From a virus (taxonomy: Duplodnaviria > Heunggongvirae > Uroviricota > Caudoviricetes): a stretch of 5,977 nucleotides of DNA. The stretch covers positions 1 to 5,977 of the IMG/VR virus record IMGVR_UViG_3300029253_000091; one strand, given 5' to 3'. The notes under the pieces were generated by a model. The model had not been told where the DNA came from. It did not search any database and saw nothing but the letters and a program-made list of their open reading frames with translations. The translations under genes were made by a program, and so were the position numbers. Positions 1-5,977 of this stretch are shown piece after piece. Within the stretch, counting starts at the first letter, position 1; every line of letters starts with the position of its first letter.

Positions 1-1
1 G

Positions 2-856
2 GCGACTCCCGTTCGTTACGATGCCCGTTCGGTCAGCACCGGTATTGCCGGACGCAGTCTGACCGCTGACCTGATTGACTGTGCAGCCGAACCGACACAG
101 TTTAACGGACGATCGCTGGTACAGATTGCGCAGGCGCTTGCTGCGCCTTTCGGCATTGAGGTGGTGAACAGCGGTGCGCCGTCGGGTGTTATTCCTGATG
201 TCCAGCCTGATCACGGTGAAACGGTGATTGAGGTAATCAACAAAATACTCGGTCAGCAGCAGGCACTGGCTTACGACGATCCGCACGGCAGGCTGGTGAT
301 TGGCGGTATTGGCTCAACGCGGGCACATACCGCGCTGGTACTTGGGGAAAACATCCTTTCCTGCGATACGGAGAAGAGTATCCGGGAGCGGTTTTCTGTT
401 TACCAGGTGGCGGGGCAGCGTGCCGGAAACGACGATGATTTCGGTGAGGCCACCACCACCGCGCTGCGGGCCCGCACAGAGGACGCATTTATTGCCCGTT
501 ACCGTCCGATGTATATCAGGCAGACAGGGCAGGCTACGGGGGCAGGCTGTATTGCGCGTGCTGACTTTGAAGCCCGGCAACGGGCGGCGCGGACGGATGA
601 AACCACCTATGTGGTGCAGGGCTGGCGACAGGGTAACGGTACGCTGTGGCAACCCAACCAGCGGGTGATTGTCTTTGATCCGGTCTGTGGTTTTGACAAT
701 ACCGAACTGCTTGTTTCGGAAGTCACGTTTACTCAGGACCAGAACGGCACCCTGACGGAAATCCGTGTCGGCCCGCCTGATGCTTATCTGCCTGAACCTG
801 AAGACCCCGGCGCGCGGAAAAAGAAAAAAGCCAGAGTACAGGAGGACCCGTTCTGA
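2..856 (+). CDS. Baseplate hub protein, Mu gp44 (P) / P2 gpD-like, C-terminal portion; 5' end lies upstream of the window
   Basis: Frame is open from nt 2 with no stop until TGA at 854-856. The listed start at 161 is an internal GTG, not a real start. High-GC coding bias. Position directly upstream of the spike, wedge and J genes matches Mu late-operon order. Lys-rich C-terminal tail (ARKKKKARVQEDPF). Confidence 0.6.
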   Translation, partial: ATPVRYDARSVSTGIAGRSLTADLIDCAAEPTQFNGRSLVQIAQALAAPFGIEVVNSGAPSGVIPDVQPDHGETVIEVINKILGQQQALAYDDPHGRLVIGGIGSTRAHTALVLGENILSCDTEKSIRERFSVYQVAGQRAGNDDDFGEATTTALRARTEDAFIARYRPMYIRQTGQATGAGCIARADFEARQRAARTDETTYVVQGWRQGNGTLWQPNQRVIVFDPVCGFDNTELLVSEVTFTQDQNGTLTEIRVGPPDAYLPEPEDPGARKKKKARVQEDPF

Positions 857-1404
857 TGAGGACGATTGAAGCCATGCAGCGACAACTTCTCGGCCTGATT
901 GGGCGGGCAGTGGTGAAAAGCATCAGTGCCGCCACGAAATGTCAGACCGTGGATGTGTCCCTGATTGCCGGTGAACCCAAAGCCGGGGTTGAACATCTTG
1001 AACCCTACGGTTTTACCGCAAGGGCAAACAGCGGTGCGGAAGCGGTGGTGTTGTTTCCGGATGGCGACCGTTCTCATGCGGTGGTTGTTACGGTGTCGGA
1101 CCGGCGCTACCGCCTGAAAGGGCTGCATACGGGGGAGGTGGCTGTCTATGACGATCAGGGGCAGTCCGTGACGCTGACCCGGGAGGGGATCGTGGTGGAC
1201 GGTGCAGGTAAAACAATCACGTTTCGCAATGCGCCTAAGGCTCGTTTTGAAATGGACCTGGAAGTGACCGGACAGGTGAAAGACCTGTGCGACTCCACCG
1301 GCACCACCATGTCAGCGATGCGGCTTGCCTATAACGGGCATCGTCACAGAGAGAACGGTCAGGGCAGTAACACCGACAAACCTGATAAAGCGATGGAGGC
1401 ATGA
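856..1404 (+). CDS. Baseplate central spike / assembly protein V-like (Mu gp45 / P2 gpV family)
   Basis: 182-aa ORF. ATG at 856 overlaps the upstream stop (TGATG). CAGGAGGA ribosome-binding site at 838-845. Size and synteny fit the gpV-like spike family. Confidence 0.75.
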   Translation: MRTIEAMQRQLLGLIGRAVVKSISAATKCQTVDVSLIAGEPKAGVEHLEPYGFTARANSGAEAVVLFPDGDRSHAVVVTVSDRRYRLKGLHTGEVAVYDDQGQSVTLTREGIVVDGAGKTITFRNAPKARFEMDLEVTGQVKDLCDSTGTTMSAMRLAYNGHRHRENGQGSNTDKPDKAMEA

Positions 1405-1829
1405 TGGAACTGTGGCTGACGGTGAACGGTAAACGCACCTGCGCCAGCGCACCGCTGGATCCGCTGACCCGTGCCGTGGTGATTTCCCTGTTCACCTGGC
1501 GGCGGGCTGAACCTGATGACAATGCCGACGTCCCGATGGGATGGTGGGGGGATACCTGGCCTGCGGTACAGAATGACCGTTACGGCTCCCGACTGTGGCT
1601 GCTTCAGCGCAGCAAACTGACCAATCAGCTGGTGCAGACGGTAAGGGGATATATCCGCGAATGCCTGCAATGGATGATTGATGACGGCGTGGTGTCCCGT
1701 ATTGATCTGGATATCCGCCGCACCGGGATTAATGAGCTGGGTAACAGTATCACCCTCTGGCGTCGTGACGGACCGGTAATGATTTCTTTTGATGATCTGT
1801 GGAGTGCGATAACGCATGGCGGACAGTGA
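1401..1829 (+). CDS. Small baseplate wedge protein (Mu gp46 / gp25-gpW-like)
   Basis: 142-aa ORF. Start overlaps the upstream stop (ATGATG at 1401-1406; the true start may be ATG 1404). GGAGG at 1395-1399. Size and position between spike and J-like gene. Confidence 0.65.
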   Translation: MMELWLTVNGKRTCASAPLDPLTRAVVISLFTWRRAEPDDNADVPMGWWGDTWPAVQNDRYGSRLWLLQRSKLTNQLVQTVRGYIRECLQWMIDDGVVSRIDLDIRRTGINELGNSITLWRRDGPVMISFDDLWSAITHGGQ

Positions 1830-2874
1830 ATTTCAACGCCCGACGCTGGCAGAAAATATCAGTATGCTCCGTAACGATTTATTCGCCAGGCTGGACGTCA
1901 GCGACACGCTCCGGCGCATGGATGAAGACGTGCGGGCAAAGGTGTATGCGGCGGCGCTGCATACGGTTTACGGTTACATCGATTATCTGGCAATGAACAT
2001 GCTGCCTGACCTGTGCGATGAGTCCTGGCTGGCGCGACATGCTGCGATGAAACGGTGTCCGCGCAAGGGGGCCACGTCTGCCAGCGGGTATATGCGCTGG
2101 GAAGGTGTCAGCGATGGCCTGAAGGTGACCGCCGGGAGTGTTATTCAGCGCGATGACCTGGTTCAGTACACGACAACTGACGATGCAACCAGCTCCGGTG
2201 GTGTCCTGCGCGTGCCGATCGCCTGCTCAAGTGCAGGTGCGGTCGGTAACGCTGACGACGGTACGGCATTAATCCTGGTCACGCCGGTGAATGGTCTGCC
2301 GTCTTCCGGTGTGGCTGACACCATTACAGGCGGATTTGATACTGAAGAGCTGGAAACGTGGCGCGCCCGCGTCATTGAGCGGTATTACTGGACGCCGCAG
2401 GGCGGGGCTGACGGGGACTATGTCGTTTGGGCTAAAGAAGTGCCCGGCATTACCCGCGCATGGACATACCGTCACTGGATGGGAACGGGAACTGTCGGTG
2501 TGATGATTGCCAGCAGTGACCTGATTAATCCCATTCCGGAAGAATCAACGGAAACGGCAGCAAGACAACATATCGGGCCACTGGCCCCGGTGGCAGGCTC
2601 TGATTTGTATGTATTCAGGCCGGTGGCACATACGGTGGATTTTCATATCCGCGTGACGCCGGACACACCAGAAATACGGGCTGCCATTACCGCGGAGTTG
2701 CGTTCGTTCCTGCTGCGTGATGGTTATCCGCAGGGAGAACTGAAGGTATCGCGTATCAGTGAGGCGATTTCCGGTGCGAACGGGGAATACAGCCATCAGT
2801 TGCTTGCACCGGTGGACAATATCTCCATTGCGAAAAACGAACTGGCGGTACTGGGGACGATTTCATGGACGTGA
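1816..2874 (+). CDS. Baseplate J-like protein (Mu gp47 / P2 gpJ / T4 gp6 family)
   Basis: 352-aa ORF overlapping the upstream gene by 14 nt. GGAG at 1801-1804. Length and position are typical of the Baseplate_J family. Confidence 0.8.
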
Positions 2875-3449
2875 CAAACGATGATTACATCCGCCTGTTA
2901 TCGGCACTGTTGCCGCCCGGTCCGGCGTGGTCAGCCAGCGATCCGGCGATTGCCGGTGCGGCACCGTCATTAACCCGTGTTCATCAGCGTGCGGATGCCC
3001 TGATGCGGGAGCTGGATCCGCGCACCACCACTGAACTGATAAACCGCTGGGAGCGTCTGTGCGGTCTGCCGGATGAATGTATTCCCGCAGGGACACAGAC
3101 CCTTCGTCAGCGTCAGCAACGGCTGGATGCGAAGGTTAACCTGGCGGGCAGCATCAACGAGAATTTTTATCTTGCACAGCTTGCTGCCCTGGGCAGACCA
3201 GATGCCAACATCACGCGATACGACAAAAGCACGTTCACCTGCTCATCGGTCTGTACTGACGCGGTGAATGCGCCGGAATGGCGGTATTACTGGCAGGTCA
3301 ACATGCCAGCCGCCACAAACACCACCTGGATGACATGTGGCGATCCCTGTGATTCCGCGCTGCGTATCTGGGGCGACACCGTTGTCGAATGTGTGCTTAA
3401 CAAACTCTGCCCGTCGCATACCTACGTAATTTTTAAATATCCGGAGTAA
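2865..3449 (+). CDS. Tail/baseplate protein (Mu gp48 / P2 gpI-like, YmfQ/DUF2313-type)
   Basis: 194-aa ORF overlapping the upstream stop by 10 nt. Immediately precedes the tail fibre gene, as gpI-like genes do in Mu and P2 modules. Confidence 0.7.
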
Positions 3450-3452
3450 TCC

Positions 3453-4274
3453 ATGCATCGTATAGACACGAAAACCGCGCAGAAGGATAAGTTCGGCGCG
3501 GGTAAGAACGGTTTTACCCGTGGTAACCCCCAGACCGGCACACCTGCCACCGATCTGGATGATGACTACTTTGACATGTTGCAGGAGGAACTTTGCAGTG
3601 TTGTGGAGGCATCCGGTGCCAGCCTAGAGAAGGGGCGGCATGACCAGCTGCTTACAGCGCTTCGTGCGCTGCTGTTAAGCCGCAAGAATCCGTTTGGCGA
3701 TATCAAATCGGATGGCACGGTGAAAACGGCTCTCGAAAACCTTGGTTTGGGAGAAGGTGCTCCAGCTATTGGCGTTCCGTTCTTCTGGCCGTCCGCCGCA
3801 ATGCCAAATACTGTAATCGACAGTTGGTCCAGTATGGTGTTTTTGAAGTTCAACGGCGCGAAATTCTCTGCCACTGATTACCCTGTGCTGGCGAAAGTGT
3901 TTCCGGCGCTAGCATTACCTGACGCACGGGGTGATTTCATTCGTATCTGGGATGATGGGCGCGGGATTGATGTCGGACGTACCCTACTTTCAGGGCAATC
4001 ACACACAATTATGGATCATGCACACAATATGGAATTGTGGACGGGGGACGGGCTTGCCGCAGGAAGTGCACGGGAAGGAGTAAACCCAGGAATACTGGCT
4101 ACATACGGTGACGGGGGAATAGTTAAAACGGACGAACCCGGTCTTAAGGTGCCATCCTCACTACGAGCTCTTAGCTCTCGTAGTGTTAAACGTTATGGTG
4201 AAATTAGTGAAAATGTAGGTACAGAAACTCGTCCTCGTAACATCGCTTTTAATTATATTGTGAGGGCCGCATGA
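3453..4274 (+). CDS. Tail fibre protein S: constant N-terminus (Sc, codons 1-97) fused to variable C-terminus (Sv) in the present orientation
   Basis: 273-aa ORF. GGAG at 3443-3446 with 6-nt spacer to ATG 3453. N-terminus [21 protein letters not shown]... and C-terminal motif ...[16 protein letters not shown] are typical of phage tail fibres. The left crossover site lies at codons 93-101. Confidence 0.85.
3730..3755. other. Left gix/hix-like crossover site (inversion site inside S)
   Basis: CTCTCGAAAACC-TT-GGTTTGGGAGAA: two 12-bp half-sites with 9/12 dyad symmetry around a central TT. It resembles hix (TTATCAAAAACCTTGGTTTTCAAGAA) and gix as I recall them. Confidence 0.7.
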
Positions 4275-4876
4275 TGAATAAAGCTGTATTAAATAGCGAA
4301 CTCATTGCCATAAAAGCGGGAGATATTACCGTTTATAATTATGATGGTGAAACGCGGGAATATATTTCTACATCAACTGAATATCTTGCGGTTGGCGTCG
4401 GTATACCGGCATGTTCTTGTTTAGATGCACCAGTTACACATAAAGCTGGTTATGCAATCTGCCGTTCTGCAGATTTTAACTCATGGAAATATGTGCCAGA
4501 CCATCGCGGTGAAATCATCTATAGCACCGAAACAGGAGAATCGAAAGAAATCACAGCTCCGGGTGATTACCCTGAAAATACAACCACTATCGCCCCGTTA
4601 ACGCCATATGATAAATGGGATGGTGAGAAATGGGTGACGGATACTGAGGCACAGCATAGTGCCGCAGTAGACGCGGCAGAAGCACAGCGCCAGTCACTGA
4701 TTGATACTGCAATGGCCTCCATCAGTCTGATTCAGCTGAAATTGCAGGCCGGACGTAAACTAACGCAGGCAGAAACAACCCGCCTTAACGCTGTGCTGGA
4801 TTACATTGACGCGGTGACGGCAACAGATACCAGCACCGTGCCGGATGTCATCTGGCCTGAACTGCCGGAGGCGTAG
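4271..4876 (+). CDS. Tail fibre assembly protein U (Tfa family)
   Basis: 201-aa ORF. ATG overlaps the S stop (ATGA). GAGGG at 4262-4266. C-terminal segment ...[30 protein letters not shown] resembles the conserved Tfa C-terminal domain. Confidence 0.8.
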
Positions 4877-5288
4877 GCCATTCAATATCTGGCGCACCGG
4901 AAGTATCGACCAGCTCCAGTGCGTCCAGATAATCCAGCCACAAATTATATTGCGCCAGTTCCTCACCTTTCAGACGACCAATAGCCGCTTTACCAGGCCA
5001 TTGTTTACTGTTCATATAATCGTTGGCCTGATTAATCAGTTGCTGCTTTTCCAGTTCGGCTGCAGCAATCTGTTCCTCATGTGTTGGTGGTGGAATTTCA
5101 GACCATGCAGGAAAACCATTTTCTCCAGCGATACGGATTTTTCCTTTCGGCGGTAATCCGGAAAACTCAATATACACTTGCTCATCAACTTCAACAGCAT
5201 CATCTGGCCATGAGTCAGCTTGAGTGTAATCCTCTTTCATCTCCAGCGGATAGAAAGAGTTTGTAGTCGCGGAATATATGTAATTCAT
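4848..5288 (-). CDS. Alternative tail fibre assembly protein U' (Tfa family), inside the invertible segment
   Basis: 146-aa ORF on the - strand. GGAGTG ribosome-binding site just upstream of its ATG. C-terminus ...[25 protein letters not shown] parallels the C-terminus of U. Its 3' end overlaps the 3' end of U. Confidence 0.8.
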   Translation of the reverse strand: MNYIYSATTNSFYPLEMKEDYTQADSWPDDAVEVDEQVYIEFSGLPPKGKIRIAGENGFPAWSEIPPPTHEEQIAAAELEKQQLINQANDYMNSKQWPGKAAIGRLKGEELAQYNLWLDYLDALELVDTSGAPDIEWPTPPAVQAR

Positions 5289-5309
5289 TTTTCACTCCAT
5301 ATAGCTAAA

Positions 5310-5663
5310 TTAACAGCCTAACGCTAAAAATGAAGCGCCGAGGCCAGGAGTACTGGCTCTGGATATAAATTTAACCGGGTCGGGACTAAAACCTGCACAG
5401 GCAATATAACCAACAGCCCCGCTATCTGGTGTGTAGTCTTGTGAGACCAAAACACGCAGACATCTGTTTGGAAATGCAATCGGGAAATGGGTTACTACAT
5501 CCTGTGCAATGCCTGGTGCGCCGATTGAGCCCCACTGAAGAATAAAACCTGATGGTAATTTTTGATATCCAGTACCTGAAACAGAAAGCGTGAAGCTACC
5601 CATATCAGGTATCTGATTCGCCCCTGTCCCTACATTCCTTTTAGCCGCTTCTCCCAAACCAAC
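5310..5663 (-). CDS. S'v: alternative tail fibre C-terminal cassette, with no start or promoter of its own in this orientation
   Basis: Open frame on the - strand from the right crossover site to TAA (5310-5312). It is in the same codon phase as Sc at the crossover. Followed 21 nt downstream by U' with its own ribosome-binding site. The listed Met at 5700-5702 lies beyond the crossover site and is probably not used. Confidence 0.7.
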
Positions 5664-5674
5664 GTTTAAGAAAA
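5649..5674. other. Right gix/hix-like crossover site (inverted copy, inside S'v, 55 bp upstream of the invertase start)
   Basis: TTCTCCCAAACC-AA-CGTTTAAGAAAA. Its reverse complement shares a 15-bp perfect match (TTGGTTTGGGAGAAG) with the left site, including the central dinucleotide, with weaker similarity on either side. Confidence 0.7.
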
Positions 5675-5729
5675 TGCAGAGGTAACAGCTAACTGGCATC
5701 ATCTCCGGTTTTTATTCAGGGGGATGATC

Positions 5730-5977
5730 ATGCTTATTGGCTATGTACGCGTGTCAACAAATGACCAGAACACCGATTTGCAACGTAATGCACTGAACTG
5801 CGCGGGATGTGAGCAGATTTTTGAGGACAAAATCAGTGGCACTAAGTCCGACAGACCGGGGCTGAAAAAACTACTCAGGACACTATCGGCAGGAGACACG
5901 CTGGTTGTCTGGAAGCTGGACAGGTTGGGGCGCAGTATGCGGCATCTTGTTACGCTGATAGAAGAGTTGCGCCAGCG
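5730..5977 (+). CDS. Gin/Pin/Hin/Cin-family serine DNA invertase, N-terminal 82 residues; gene continues beyond the window
   Basis: N-terminus MLIGYVRVSTNDQNTDLQRNAL... matches what I recall of Gin and Pin, including the catalytic serine in YVRVSTNDQ, followed by ...DTLVVWKLDRLGRS. AGGGGGA ribosome-binding site at 5718-5724, 5 nt before the ATG. Sits immediately outside the right crossover site. Confidence 0.9.
   Translation, partial: MLIGYVRVSTNDQNTDLQRNALNCAGCEQIFEDKISGTKSDRPGLKKLLRTLSAGDTLVVWKLDRLGRSMRHLVTLIEELRQ
5811..5875. promoter_or_regulatory. Candidate Fis-dependent recombinational enhancer inside the 5' end of the invertase gene
   Basis: Two A/T-tract-centred segments, GAGCAGATTTTTGAGGAC (centre ~5819) and GGCTGAAAAAACTAC (centre ~5867), lie about 48 bp apart and 80-140 bp into the gene. 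This matches the enhancer position and Fis-site spacing known for Hin and Gin. Fis sites are degenerate, so this is tentative. Confidence 0.3.

What the first reader, a model, noticed from the sequence alone, without database searches (positions are those of the whole stretch)
3730..5674. Gin-type invertible tail-fibre cassette with both crossover sites identifiable
Two 26-bp imperfect palindromes in inverted orientation (3730-3755 and 5649-5674) share a 15-bp identical core. They bracket convergent fibre/assembly gene sets (Sv-U on +, U'-S'v on -), and a serine invertase gene starts 55 bp beyond the right site. This is the architecture of the Mu G segment and the e14 P region, i.e. a reversible host-range switch. 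The segment is much shorter than the ~3 kb Mu G segment.
Basis: partly seen in the sequence, partly recalled or inferred. Interest (0 to 1): 0.7.

Follow-up and report, generated by a model that had tools for sequence, protein, structure and literature searches.

The report
Pin-type invertible phage tail-fibre switch

Summary
Two 26-bp sites (3730-3755 and 5649-5674) lie in inverted orientation. They share an exact 15-bp core and the same central TT/AA dinucleotide. They bracket Sv-U (+) and U'-S'v (-), and a serine invertase gene starts 55 bp beyond the right site. The left site is 26/26 identical, and the right site 25/26 identical, to the crossover sites of the E. coli K-12 e14 P segment. 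The invertase N-terminus is 94% identical to PinE and 79% to Gin. Flipping the window in silico at the central dinucleotides gives an in-frame 213-aa Sc-S'v fibre. That exact protein exists in public databases on 94 contigs. The predicted flipped junction occurs in 21 complete E. coli genomes and the native junction in 22. One 97%-identical prophage carries the segment inverted, with breakpoints inside the two sites. In K-12 laboratory lineages the same sites are found flipped at 100% identity. This is the known Pin/e14 system in a more complete Mu-like-tail prophage, with a different second cassette. Two things remain open: the invertase gene is cut by the contig end after codon 82, and switching in this particular organism is inferred, not shown. 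Interest is low.

The parts
3453..3742 (+). Sc: the constant N-terminal part of tail-fibre gene S (codons 1-97), lying outside the invertible segment and carrying the gene's start codon
   Evidence: ORF 3453-4274. PHROG tail-fibre families cover residues 1-103. The stretch is 97.8% identical to e14 stfP 5' DNA.
3730..3755 (.). Left crossover site (pix-type, 26 bp), with central dinucleotide TT at 3742-3743
   Evidence: It is 26/26 identical to the left site of the K-12 e14 P segment and aligns with Mu gix and P1 cix.
3743..4274 (+). Sv: the variable C-terminal fibre cassette currently fused to Sc (StfE-type, with a weak tail-collar match)
   Evidence: The S protein is 63% identical overall to the in-silico Sc-StfE fusion of K-12.
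4271..4876 (+). U: tail-fibre assembly chaperone for Sv (TfaE-type)
   Evidence: Pfam Caudo_TAP, E = 3.9e-32. PHROG_105. 92% identical to K-12 TfaE.
4848..5288 (-). U': tail-fibre assembly chaperone of the alternative cassette, convergent with U and overlapping it by 29 bp
   Evidence: Pfam Caudo_TAP, E = 8.4e-38. PHROG_188.
5310..5661 (-). S'v: the alternative fibre C-terminal cassette, silent for the fibre in this orientation (gp53-like C-terminal domain)
   Evidence: Pfam Gp53-like_C, E = 3.7e-15. After in-silico inversion it is in frame with Sc, giving a 213-aa protein that exists exactly in public data as P0016.
5649..5674 (.). Right crossover site (26 bp), with central dinucleotide AA at 5661-5662
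   Evidence: It is 25/26 identical to the right site of the K-12 e14 P segment.
5663..5702 (-). Short leader (ATG at 5702 or 5699) that reads through the right site into S'v, giving a 130-aa free-standing ORF (5310-5702)
   Evidence: It is the positional counterpart of the e14 stfE/'StfE2' ORF of PMC12529663. Whether it is expressed was not tested.
5730..5977 (+). pin: serine DNA invertase gene, first 82 codons only (cut by the contig end), with catalytic Ser9 in the motif YVRVST
   Evidence: Pfam Resolvase, E = 4.6e-29. Gin structures 4m6f and 3uj3, E = 2e-41. 77/82 identical to K-12 PinE and 82/82 to the 188-aa invertase of phage 500465-1.
5748..5819 (.). Putative recombinational (Fis) enhancer inside the 5' end of pin
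   Evidence: It aligns without gaps to the enhancer annotated in P1 cin (nt 19-90 of the gene) at 78% identity. G-N13-C elements lie at 5751-5765 and 5800-5814. ATTTG and TAATG between them resemble the ATTTA/TAATG described in the Hin enhancer (PMC3798978). This part is inferred only.

Best explanation
This is a Pin-type (Gin/Hin/Cin/Pin family) site-specific inversion switch, the e14-type P segment, in the tail-fibre region of an E. coli prophage with a Mu-like baseplate (gp44-gp48). The tail-fibre gene S starts outside the segment; Sc is codons 1-97. The left 26-bp site lies inside the gene, at the Sc/Sv boundary. The invertase, encoded just beyond the right site, binds both 26-bp sites. 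By analogy with Hin and Gin, it synapses them on supercoiled DNA together with a Fis-bound enhancer located in its own 5' coding region. It then cuts at the central TT/AA dinucleotides and rotates the 1919-bp segment. In the orientation seen here, Sc is fused to Sv (273-aa fibre) and is followed by its chaperone U. After a flip, Sc is fused in frame to S'v (213-aa fibre with a gp53-like tip) and is followed by U'. Progeny particles therefore carry one of two receptor-binding tips. Shown here: the sites, the gene layout, the in-frame alternative fusion, and the existence of both orientations in nature with breakpoints in the sites. Inferred: Fis/enhancer dependence, activity of this particular copy, and the host-range consequence.
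For: The invertase is closest to Gin, PinE and Cin. The sites are 26/26 and 25/26 identical to the e14 sites and follow the same 12-2-12 plan as the annotated Mu gix and P1 cix sites. In-silico inversion at the central dinucleotide gives an in-frame 213-aa fibre, and the exact sequence is present on 94 public contigs. The predicted flipped junction (901 nt) is found over at least 80% of its length in 21 complete E. coli genomes, 11 of them at 95% identity or more; the native junction is found in 22. Locus L003 (CP027447, 97% identical) has the segment inverted, and the alignments switch strand within window 3737-3756 and 5648-5667. The same Sv cassette is found in the invertase-proximal position in other genomes (P0005 and P0007). 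The flipped junction predicted for K-12 e14 is present at 100% identity over 900 bp in at least 60 K-12-derived assemblies, whereas NC_000913.3 has the other orientation. Published experiments show that PinE, PinQ and PinR invert the e14 segment at TTGGTTTGGGAGAAGG, and that both forms coexist in clonal cultures (PMC12529663; PMC4272514).
Against: Only 82 codons of the invertase are in the window; the contig ends there. Its C-terminal DNA-binding domain and its intactness are therefore unknown for this copy. Relatives have intact genes of 184-188 aa. The enhancer is supported only by alignment with the P1 annotation; third-codon-position identity is not clearly higher there than in the rest of the gene. 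My two G-N13-C elements are 49 bp apart by my count. No promoter-like site for pin passed the simple scan. No reads are available, so inversion in this organism is not shown. Whether the prophage is still able to form particles cannot be seen from 6 kb.
Confidence: 0.9

Rival explanations
1. The inversion machinery is the same, but the biological role is host defence rather than phage host range. The prophage would be cryptic or domesticated. The relevant output would be the free-standing ORF that enters the segment from the invertase side (5310-5702, a leader plus the gp53-like tip), which would mask receptors against incoming phages, as reported for e14 'StfE2'.
For: The 130-aa ORF, with a start codon outside the right site, is conserved in position in every relative examined and even in Mu. 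Its e14 counterpart StfE2 (125 aa, also gp53-like) was reported to block T2 adsorption (PMC12529663). The window is in the orientation equivalent to the 'inverted' (StfP2 + StfE2) state of K-12.
Against: The window ORF is only 31% identical to K-12 StfE2. StfE2 activity was shown with plasmid-expressed protein. No promoter was detected. The only Shine-Dalgarno-like element, by my own reading of the sequence, is GGAG directly abutting the first ATG. The leader region is also the presumed pin promoter and RBS region, which by itself could explain its conservation. Relatives of this locus keep a full tail module (tape measure, baseplate), unlike the truncated e14.
Confidence: 0.15
2. This copy is a locked relic. 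The sites and cassettes are intact, but this copy no longer switches because its own invertase is defective beyond the window or the enhancer is non-functional.
For: The invertase is truncated by the window edge. Some relatives show decay of silent cassettes, such as the frameshifted tail-fibre assembly gene and the mis-called 'integrase' pseudogene in L003.
Against: The truncation coincides with the contig end, so it is an assembly limit and not a mutation: the contig length equals the window length. The first 82 codons are 100% identical to an intact 188-aa invertase in phage 500465-1. Both sites are intact. Pin-type invertases from other prophages act in trans on these sites (PMC12529663), and E. 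coli genomes that match the window have a median of 2 matching places.
Confidence: 0.08
3. The two orientations seen among genomes arise from RecA-dependent homologous recombination between short inverted repeats, or from assembly error, and not from site-specific recombination.
For: Inverted repeats can mediate rare homologous inversion. Short-read assemblers can mis-orient segments flanked by repeats.
Against: The shared core is only 15-20 bp, which is far below efficient RecA substrates. The breakpoints fall exactly in sites that match the invertase consensus. Both orientations occur in complete, mostly long-read genomes at roughly equal frequency. Inversion was reported to be locked in the pinE and pinE pinQ mutants (PMC12529663).
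Confidence: 0.02

Closest known systems
P segment / PinE of the E. coli K-12 cryptic prophage e14 (pix sites)
   Same: The left site is 26/26 identical and the right site 25/26. The Sc/ymfQ/jayE DNA is 97.8% identical. The gene order is the same: ymfQ, S, U, U' (reversed), S'v (reversed), pin. Pin is 77/82 identical. U is 92% identical to TfaE. The segment lengths are similar: 1919 bp here and 1827 bp in e14 between the central dinucleotides; the e14 figure is my calculation from the coordinates.
   Different: The window is in the opposite orientation to the MG1655 reference, with the StfE/TfaE-type cassette expressed. The central part of Sv differs. The second cassette (S'v/U') is not StfP/TfaP-like at the DNA level; it resembles the K-12 gp53-like/yfdK (CPS-53-type) genes at 86%. 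The upstream baseplate genes (gp44-gp47) are intact here, whereas e14 has only a jayE pseudogene.
G segment / Gin of bacteriophage Mu (gix sites)
   Same: The architecture is the same: Sc outside the segment, then Sv-U, then U'-S'v reversed, then the invertase immediately beyond the right site. The gap between site and invertase start is 54 bp in Mu and 55 bp here. The sites follow the same 12-2-12 plan. The upstream neighbours are homologous baseplate genes gp45-gp48. Gin is 65/82 identical.
   Different: The Mu segment is about 3.06 kb, my calculation from the site positions. Its central dinucleotide is TC/GA rather than TT/AA. Its fibre is much longer (the S gene is 1515 bp). The cassettes are unrelated at the DNA level.
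C segment / Cin of bacteriophage P1 (cix sites, annotated enhancer)
   Same: The sites share the TT/AA core and the inner half-site GGTTTAAGAGAA, against GGTTTGGGAGAA here. Cin is 67/82 identical. The enhancer annotated at cin nt 19-90 aligns to window 5748-5819 at 78% identity.
   Different: The P1 segment is about 4.2 kb. The cin gene lies on the other side, with its 3' end abutting cixL. The fibre genes are long.
H segment / Hin of Salmonella (hix sites)
   Same: Hin belongs to the same invertase subfamily, uses 26-bp sites, and has a Fis enhancer inside the invertase gene (PMC3798978). The window sites match hixL, as I recall its sequence from memory, at 19-20 of 26 positions. The hix sequence was not verified from any source.
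   Different: Hin flips a promoter controlling flagellin genes, not alternative protein C-termini.
Escherichia phage 500465-1 (CP025900, Peduoviridae, P2-like)
   Same: The right site, the intergenic region and the pin 5' end are the same at 99.4% DNA identity, and the invertase is 82/82 identical. The U region is 90% identical.
   Different: The left site (TTCTCACATACC|TT|GGTTTGGGAGAA) and the Sc context are different, and the S'v cassette is different. This shows that the module moves between tail types.

Membership tests
Fis/enhancer-dependent serine DNA invertase systems (Gin/Hin/Cin/Pin) | Small serine recombinase with an N-terminal catalytic domain and a catalytic serine near residue 9-10 | tested here: met
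   Pfam Resolvase, E = 4.6e-29. The motif MLIGYVRVSTNDQ aligns residue for residue with the Gin structures 4m6f and 3uj3, where S9 is the mutated residue in 3uj3.
Fis/enhancer-dependent serine DNA invertase systems (Gin/Hin/Cin/Pin) | C-terminal helix-turn-helix DNA-binding domain, with total length of about 180-195 aa | not testable with these tools
   The window and contig end at codon 82. Relatives carrying the same or nearly the same allele have invertases of 184-188 aa.
Fis/enhancer-dependent serine DNA invertase systems (Gin/Hin/Cin/Pin) | Two 26-bp sites in inverted orientation, each made of two imperfectly symmetric 12-bp half-sites around a 2-bp core, with the core identical and non-palindromic in both | tested here: met
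   The cores are TT and AA. The half-sites match the pattern TCNNAAACC shared with the annotated gix and cix sites.
Fis/enhancer-dependent serine DNA invertase systems (Gin/Hin/Cin/Pin) | Recombinational enhancer in cis with two Fis sites, located in the 5' part of the invertase gene | tested here: inconclusive
   Window 5748-5819 aligns to the annotated P1 cin enhancer at 78% identity. Two G-N13-C elements and AT-rich ATTTG/TAATG lie there. The conservation cannot be separated from protein-coding constraint. Fis binding was not tested.
Fis/enhancer-dependent serine DNA invertase systems (Gin/Hin/Cin/Pin) | The segment actually inverts by exchange at the core dinucleotide | tested here: met
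   This is met for the family of loci, not for this molecule. The predicted flipped junctions occur in 21 genomes. L003 has breakpoints inside the sites. The exact predicted fusion protein is in public data. K-12 lineages carry both states at 100% identity. Experimental support is in PMC12529663 and PMC4272514.
e14-type P segment (Pin / pix) | Crossover sites with the pix sequence, including the core TTGGTTTGGGAGAAG(G) | tested here: met
   The sites are 26/26 and 25/26 identical to those of NC_000913.3 e14. The core matches the repeat published in PMC12529663.
e14-type P segment (Pin / pix) | Position between ymfQ (Mu gp48-like) plus Sc on one side and pin on the other, with two convergent fibre/chaperone pairs | tested here: met
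   The order is the same as ymfQ-stfP-tfaP-tfaE-stfE-pinE.
e14-type P segment (Pin / pix) | The same two cassettes as K-12 e14 (StfP/TfaP and StfE/TfaE) | tested here: not met
   Only the TfaE-type chaperone and the 3' end of Sv match e14, at 89% DNA identity. The S'v/U' cassette is a different allele: it is 31% identical to StfE2 over its length, and U' is 60% identical to TfaP over 102 aligned positions. Cassette content varies among relatives, so this is allelic variation within the family.

The most novel reading that the evidence does not exclude
The switch may have two simultaneous outputs. Besides changing the virion fibre tip, each flip would place the other receptor-binding cassette behind a short conserved leader (ATG at 5702) on the invertase side. 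That would produce a free tip protein (130 aa here) that masks host receptors and excludes other phages, as claimed in 2025 for e14 StfE2. The leader ORF is positionally conserved from this locus through to Mu, so this could be a general, overlooked property of Gin/Pin segments.
Probability: 0.12. Interest if true: 0.45.

Novelty: already known. Interest (0 to 1): 0.12.

Why it matters
It matters little beyond correct annotation. The locus is a textbook programmed inversion that diversifies phage receptor recognition. Recognising it prevents three mis-annotations seen in RefSeq relatives, where the silent cassette is called a separate 'gp53-like' gene, a 'hypothetical protein', or even a frameshifted 'integrase'. 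It also explains why assemblies differ in orientation here. The cassette mosaicism that begins exactly at the crossover sites, and the sharing of the pin/right-site module between Mu-like-tail and P2-like phages, illustrate how these switches spread tail-fibre tips among prophages. The one angle of current interest is the recently reported anti-phage role of the invertase-side ORF in e14, and this locus has a structural counterpart of that ORF.

Tried and rejected
A search for a third (cryptic) crossover site, which would make this a multi-inversion system like Min or a shufflon, found none: the consensus scan with up to 3 mismatches gave only the two sites, and every relative locus also has exactly two. 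Chance inverted repeat was rejected. The sigma-70 and terminator scan of 3300-5977 gave fewer promoter-like sites than shuffles and nothing upstream of pin or of the 5702 ORF. Rfam found no RNA family in the window. A look-up of contigs encoding the exact S protein returned nothing, so the sample of origin could not be examined for mixed orientations; the cluster look-up shows only that the window is a whole 5977-nt JGI/IMG 'gem' contig. The e14 analysis by Mehta et al. 2004 (PMC331406) and the Johnson review (PMC4384473) are not held in the library. The hix sequence could not be retrieved from a held paper, so the hix comparison rests on my memory of hixL and is not counted as a test. A test for extra synonymous-site conservation in the putative enhancer was not informative: third-position identity in nt 19-90 versus nt 91-246 was 50% versus 44% against P1 and 38% versus 40% against Mu.
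Full report
1. OBSERVATION

- Left site, 3730-3755: CTCTCGAAAACC|TT|GGTTTGGGAGAA.
- Right site, 5649-5674: TTCTCCCAAACC|AA|CGTTTAAGAAAA. Its reverse complement is TTTTCTTAAACG|TT|GGTTTGGGAGAA.
- The two agree at 21 of 26 positions and share an exact 15-bp core at 3742-3756 and 5648-5662.

The match is more than chance would give.
- An exact inverted repeat this long appeared in only 2 of 200 dinucleotide-preserving shuffles.
- A consensus derived from invertase sites (TCNNAAACCNNGGTTTNNGA, up to 3 mismatches) hits only these two places in the window, against 0.22 expected.

2. ANATOMY

Upstream lie homologues of Mu baseplate genes:
- gp44-like, truncated by the contig start, 2-856
- gp45, 856-1404
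- gp46, 1401-1829
- Baseplate_J/gp47, 1816-2874
- gp48/YmfQ, 2865-3449

The switch region follows:
- S, 3453-4274, 273 aa. PHROG tail-fibre families match it.
- U, 4271-4876, Caudo_TAP.
- U', 4848-5288 on the minus strand, Caudo_TAP. It overlaps U by 29 bp.
- S'v, 5310-5661 on the minus strand, Gp53-like_C.
- After a 55-bp gap beyond the right site, a resolvase-family gene starts at 5730. It runs off the window after 82 codons.

The left site sits inside S, with its central TT in codon 97. Codons 1-97 therefore form a constant part (Sc).

3. DOES IT FLIP?

I exchanged the DNA in silico at the central dinucleotides, 3742/3743 and 5661/5662. Sc then joins S'v in frame and gives a 213-aa protein. 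Six independent checks followed.

(a) That exact 213-aa sequence is in the public protein collection. It is P0016, found on 94 contigs of E. coli and other Enterobacteriaceae.

(b) The predicted flipped left junction (901 nt) is present over at least 80% of its length in 21 complete E. coli genomes, 11 of them at 95% identity or more. The native junction is present in 22.

(c) In strain 2014C-3075 (L003), the flanks are collinear with the window at 97% identity, but the inside is reversed. The alignments change strand within window 3737-3756 and 5648-5667, which is inside the two sites.

(d) The Sv cassette of the window is found in other genomes in the invertase-proximal position, behind the short leader (P0005 and P0007).

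(e) The sites are 26/26 and 25/26 identical to those of the e14 P segment of E. coli K-12. The flipped junction I predicted from NC_000913.3 occurs at 100% identity over 900 bp in at least 60 K-12-derived assemblies, including DH1, DH5alpha, W3110-P, AB1157, XL1-Blue and other MG1655 stocks. These sites therefore switch within a clonal laboratory lineage.

(f) Published work agrees. Both e14 orientations coexist in clonal MG1655 cultures (PMC4272514). PinE, PinQ and PinR invert the e14 segment at TTGGTTTGGGAGAAGG (PMC12529663). That repeat is the window's core plus one base.

4. THE RECOMBINASE AND ITS ACCESSORY ELEMENT

The 82 N-terminal residues have their best solved-structure matches in Mu Gin (4m6f and 3uj3, E = 2e-41). 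Identities over these 82 residues are as follows:

| Compared with | Identical residues |
|---|---|
| Invertase of phage 500465-1 (intact, 188 aa) | 82/82 |
| K-12 PinE | 77/82 |
| P1 Cin | 67/82 |
| Mu Gin | 65/82 |

The catalytic serine motif YVRVST is present.

The P1 record annotates the Cin enhancer at nt 19-90 of cin. This aligns without gaps to window 5748-5819 at 78% identity. Two G-N13-C elements lie there, at 5751-5765 and 5800-5814. Between them are ATTTG and TAATG, which resemble the ATTTA and TAATG described between the Fis sites of the Hin enhancer (PMC3798978). This is suggestive only, because the conservation cannot be separated from coding constraint.

5. MECHANISM

The following steps rest on established knowledge of Hin and Gin (PMC3798978). 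Invertase dimers bind the two sites. With the Fis-bound enhancer they form an invertasome on supercoiled DNA. All four strands are cut at the 2-bp core, subunits rotate 180 degrees, and the ends are re-ligated.

The non-palindromic and identical TT/AA cores fix the outcome as inversion.

The consequences follow directly from the sequence:
- In one orientation, the fibre is Sc-Sv (273 aa) with chaperone U.
- In the other orientation, the fibre is Sc-S'v (213 aa) with chaperone U'.

That this changes host range is inferred from the Mu and P1 precedents and from the receptor-binding-type C-terminal domains.

6. COMPARISON AND MEMBERSHIP

The locus meets the testable defining features of the Gin/Hin/Cin/Pin systems:
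- the catalytic domain
- site architecture and core
- the Sc/Sv layout
- demonstrated inversion in the family

Two features remain open. The C-terminal DNA-binding domain lies outside the window. The enhancer test is inconclusive.

Within that family, the locus is an e14-type P segment. The sites are identical, the flanking ymfQ/Sc DNA is 97.8% identical, and the gene order is the same.

It differs from K-12 e14 in four ways:
- It is in the opposite orientation to the reference.
- It has a divergent central part of Sv.
- It carries a different second cassette, which resembles the K-12 gp53-like/yfdK genes at 86%.
- It has intact baseplate genes where e14 has a pseudogene.

Relatives show the same locus with cassettes swapped, and the divergence starts right at the crossover site. 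L002 diverges from window position 3758, L001 over 4267-4595, and L004 over 5111-5601.

7. RIVALS

- A defence role for the invertase-side ORF (5310-5702) is possible but untested here. It would add to the inversion mechanism, not replace it.
- A locked relic cannot be excluded, because pin is cut. However, the cut is the contig end, and the allele is intact elsewhere.
- Homologous recombination, assembly artefact and chance are very unlikely.

8. VERDICT

The system is already known: the Pin/e14 P segment, of the Mu G family. It is widespread in E. coli genomes, 3035 of 5426 of which match parts of the window. Interest is low. The only mildly novel thread is the conserved leader ORF that enters the segment from the invertase side.

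Noticed in passing
window 5310-5702 (-); also L001-L006 and L008 at the equivalent place: An ATG-initiated frame starts 13-17 codons outside the right site, inside the 54-55-bp gap before the invertase gene. It reads through the site (..NVGLGE..) into whichever cassette is 'silent'. This holds in the window, in five E. coli relatives, in a P2-like phage, and in Mu (MPCVPKSTIIQNLGLQE). RefSeq annotates it as a separate gene. Its e14 counterpart is the 'StfE/StfE2' of PMC12529663.
   Followed up: partly
window 3758-4222, 4267-4595 and 5111-5601 compared with L002, L001 and L004: Near-identical prophages differ by whole blocks inside the invertible segment. In L002 the divergence starts 2 bp after the 15-bp core of the left site. 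This suggests cassette exchange between prophages, using the crossover sites or the conserved borders.
   Followed up: partly
window 5639-5977 compared with L008 (phage 500465-1, Peduoviridae) 6910-7248: The right site, the intergenic region and the pin 5' end are 99.4% identical to those of a P2-like phage. That phage has a different left site and a different Sc context. The invertase/right-site module is therefore shared between different tail types.
   Followed up: partly
window 1-5977 (the whole contig): The exact S protein is recorded on a single contig of 5977 nt from JGI/IMG 'gem'. The window is therefore an entire metagenome-assembled contig. It begins inside the gp44-like gene and ends inside pin, probably at repeats shared with other prophages; genomes that match the window have a median of 2 matching places.
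   Followed up: partly
window about 4000-5800: G+C falls from about 0.57-0.60 in the baseplate genes to 0.41-0.48 inside the invertible segment and at pin. This is consistent with the cassettes having a different, horizontally exchanged origin.
   Followed up: no
L002, L003 and L004 downstream of pinE; L005 (K-12): The position just beyond the invertase gene carries defence-type cargo in relatives: McrA in e14, a LEM-3-like GIY-YIG protein in three relatives, and a retron Ec67 reverse transcriptase further on in L003.
   Followed up: no
window 4795-4812 / 4921-4938 and 4848-4876: The convergent chaperone genes U and U' overlap by 29 bp at their 3' ends. Their conserved C-terminal motifs (LDYIDA and LDYLDA) create an 18-nt, 83% complementary inverted repeat in the middle of the segment. 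K-12 tfaP and tfaE overlap by the same 29 bp.
   Followed up: no
L003 5818-6278 (CP027447): In this flipped relative, RefSeq labels the silent Sv cassette as a frameshifted, partial 'integrase' pseudogene. This is an annotation artefact of the invertible segment.
   Followed up: no
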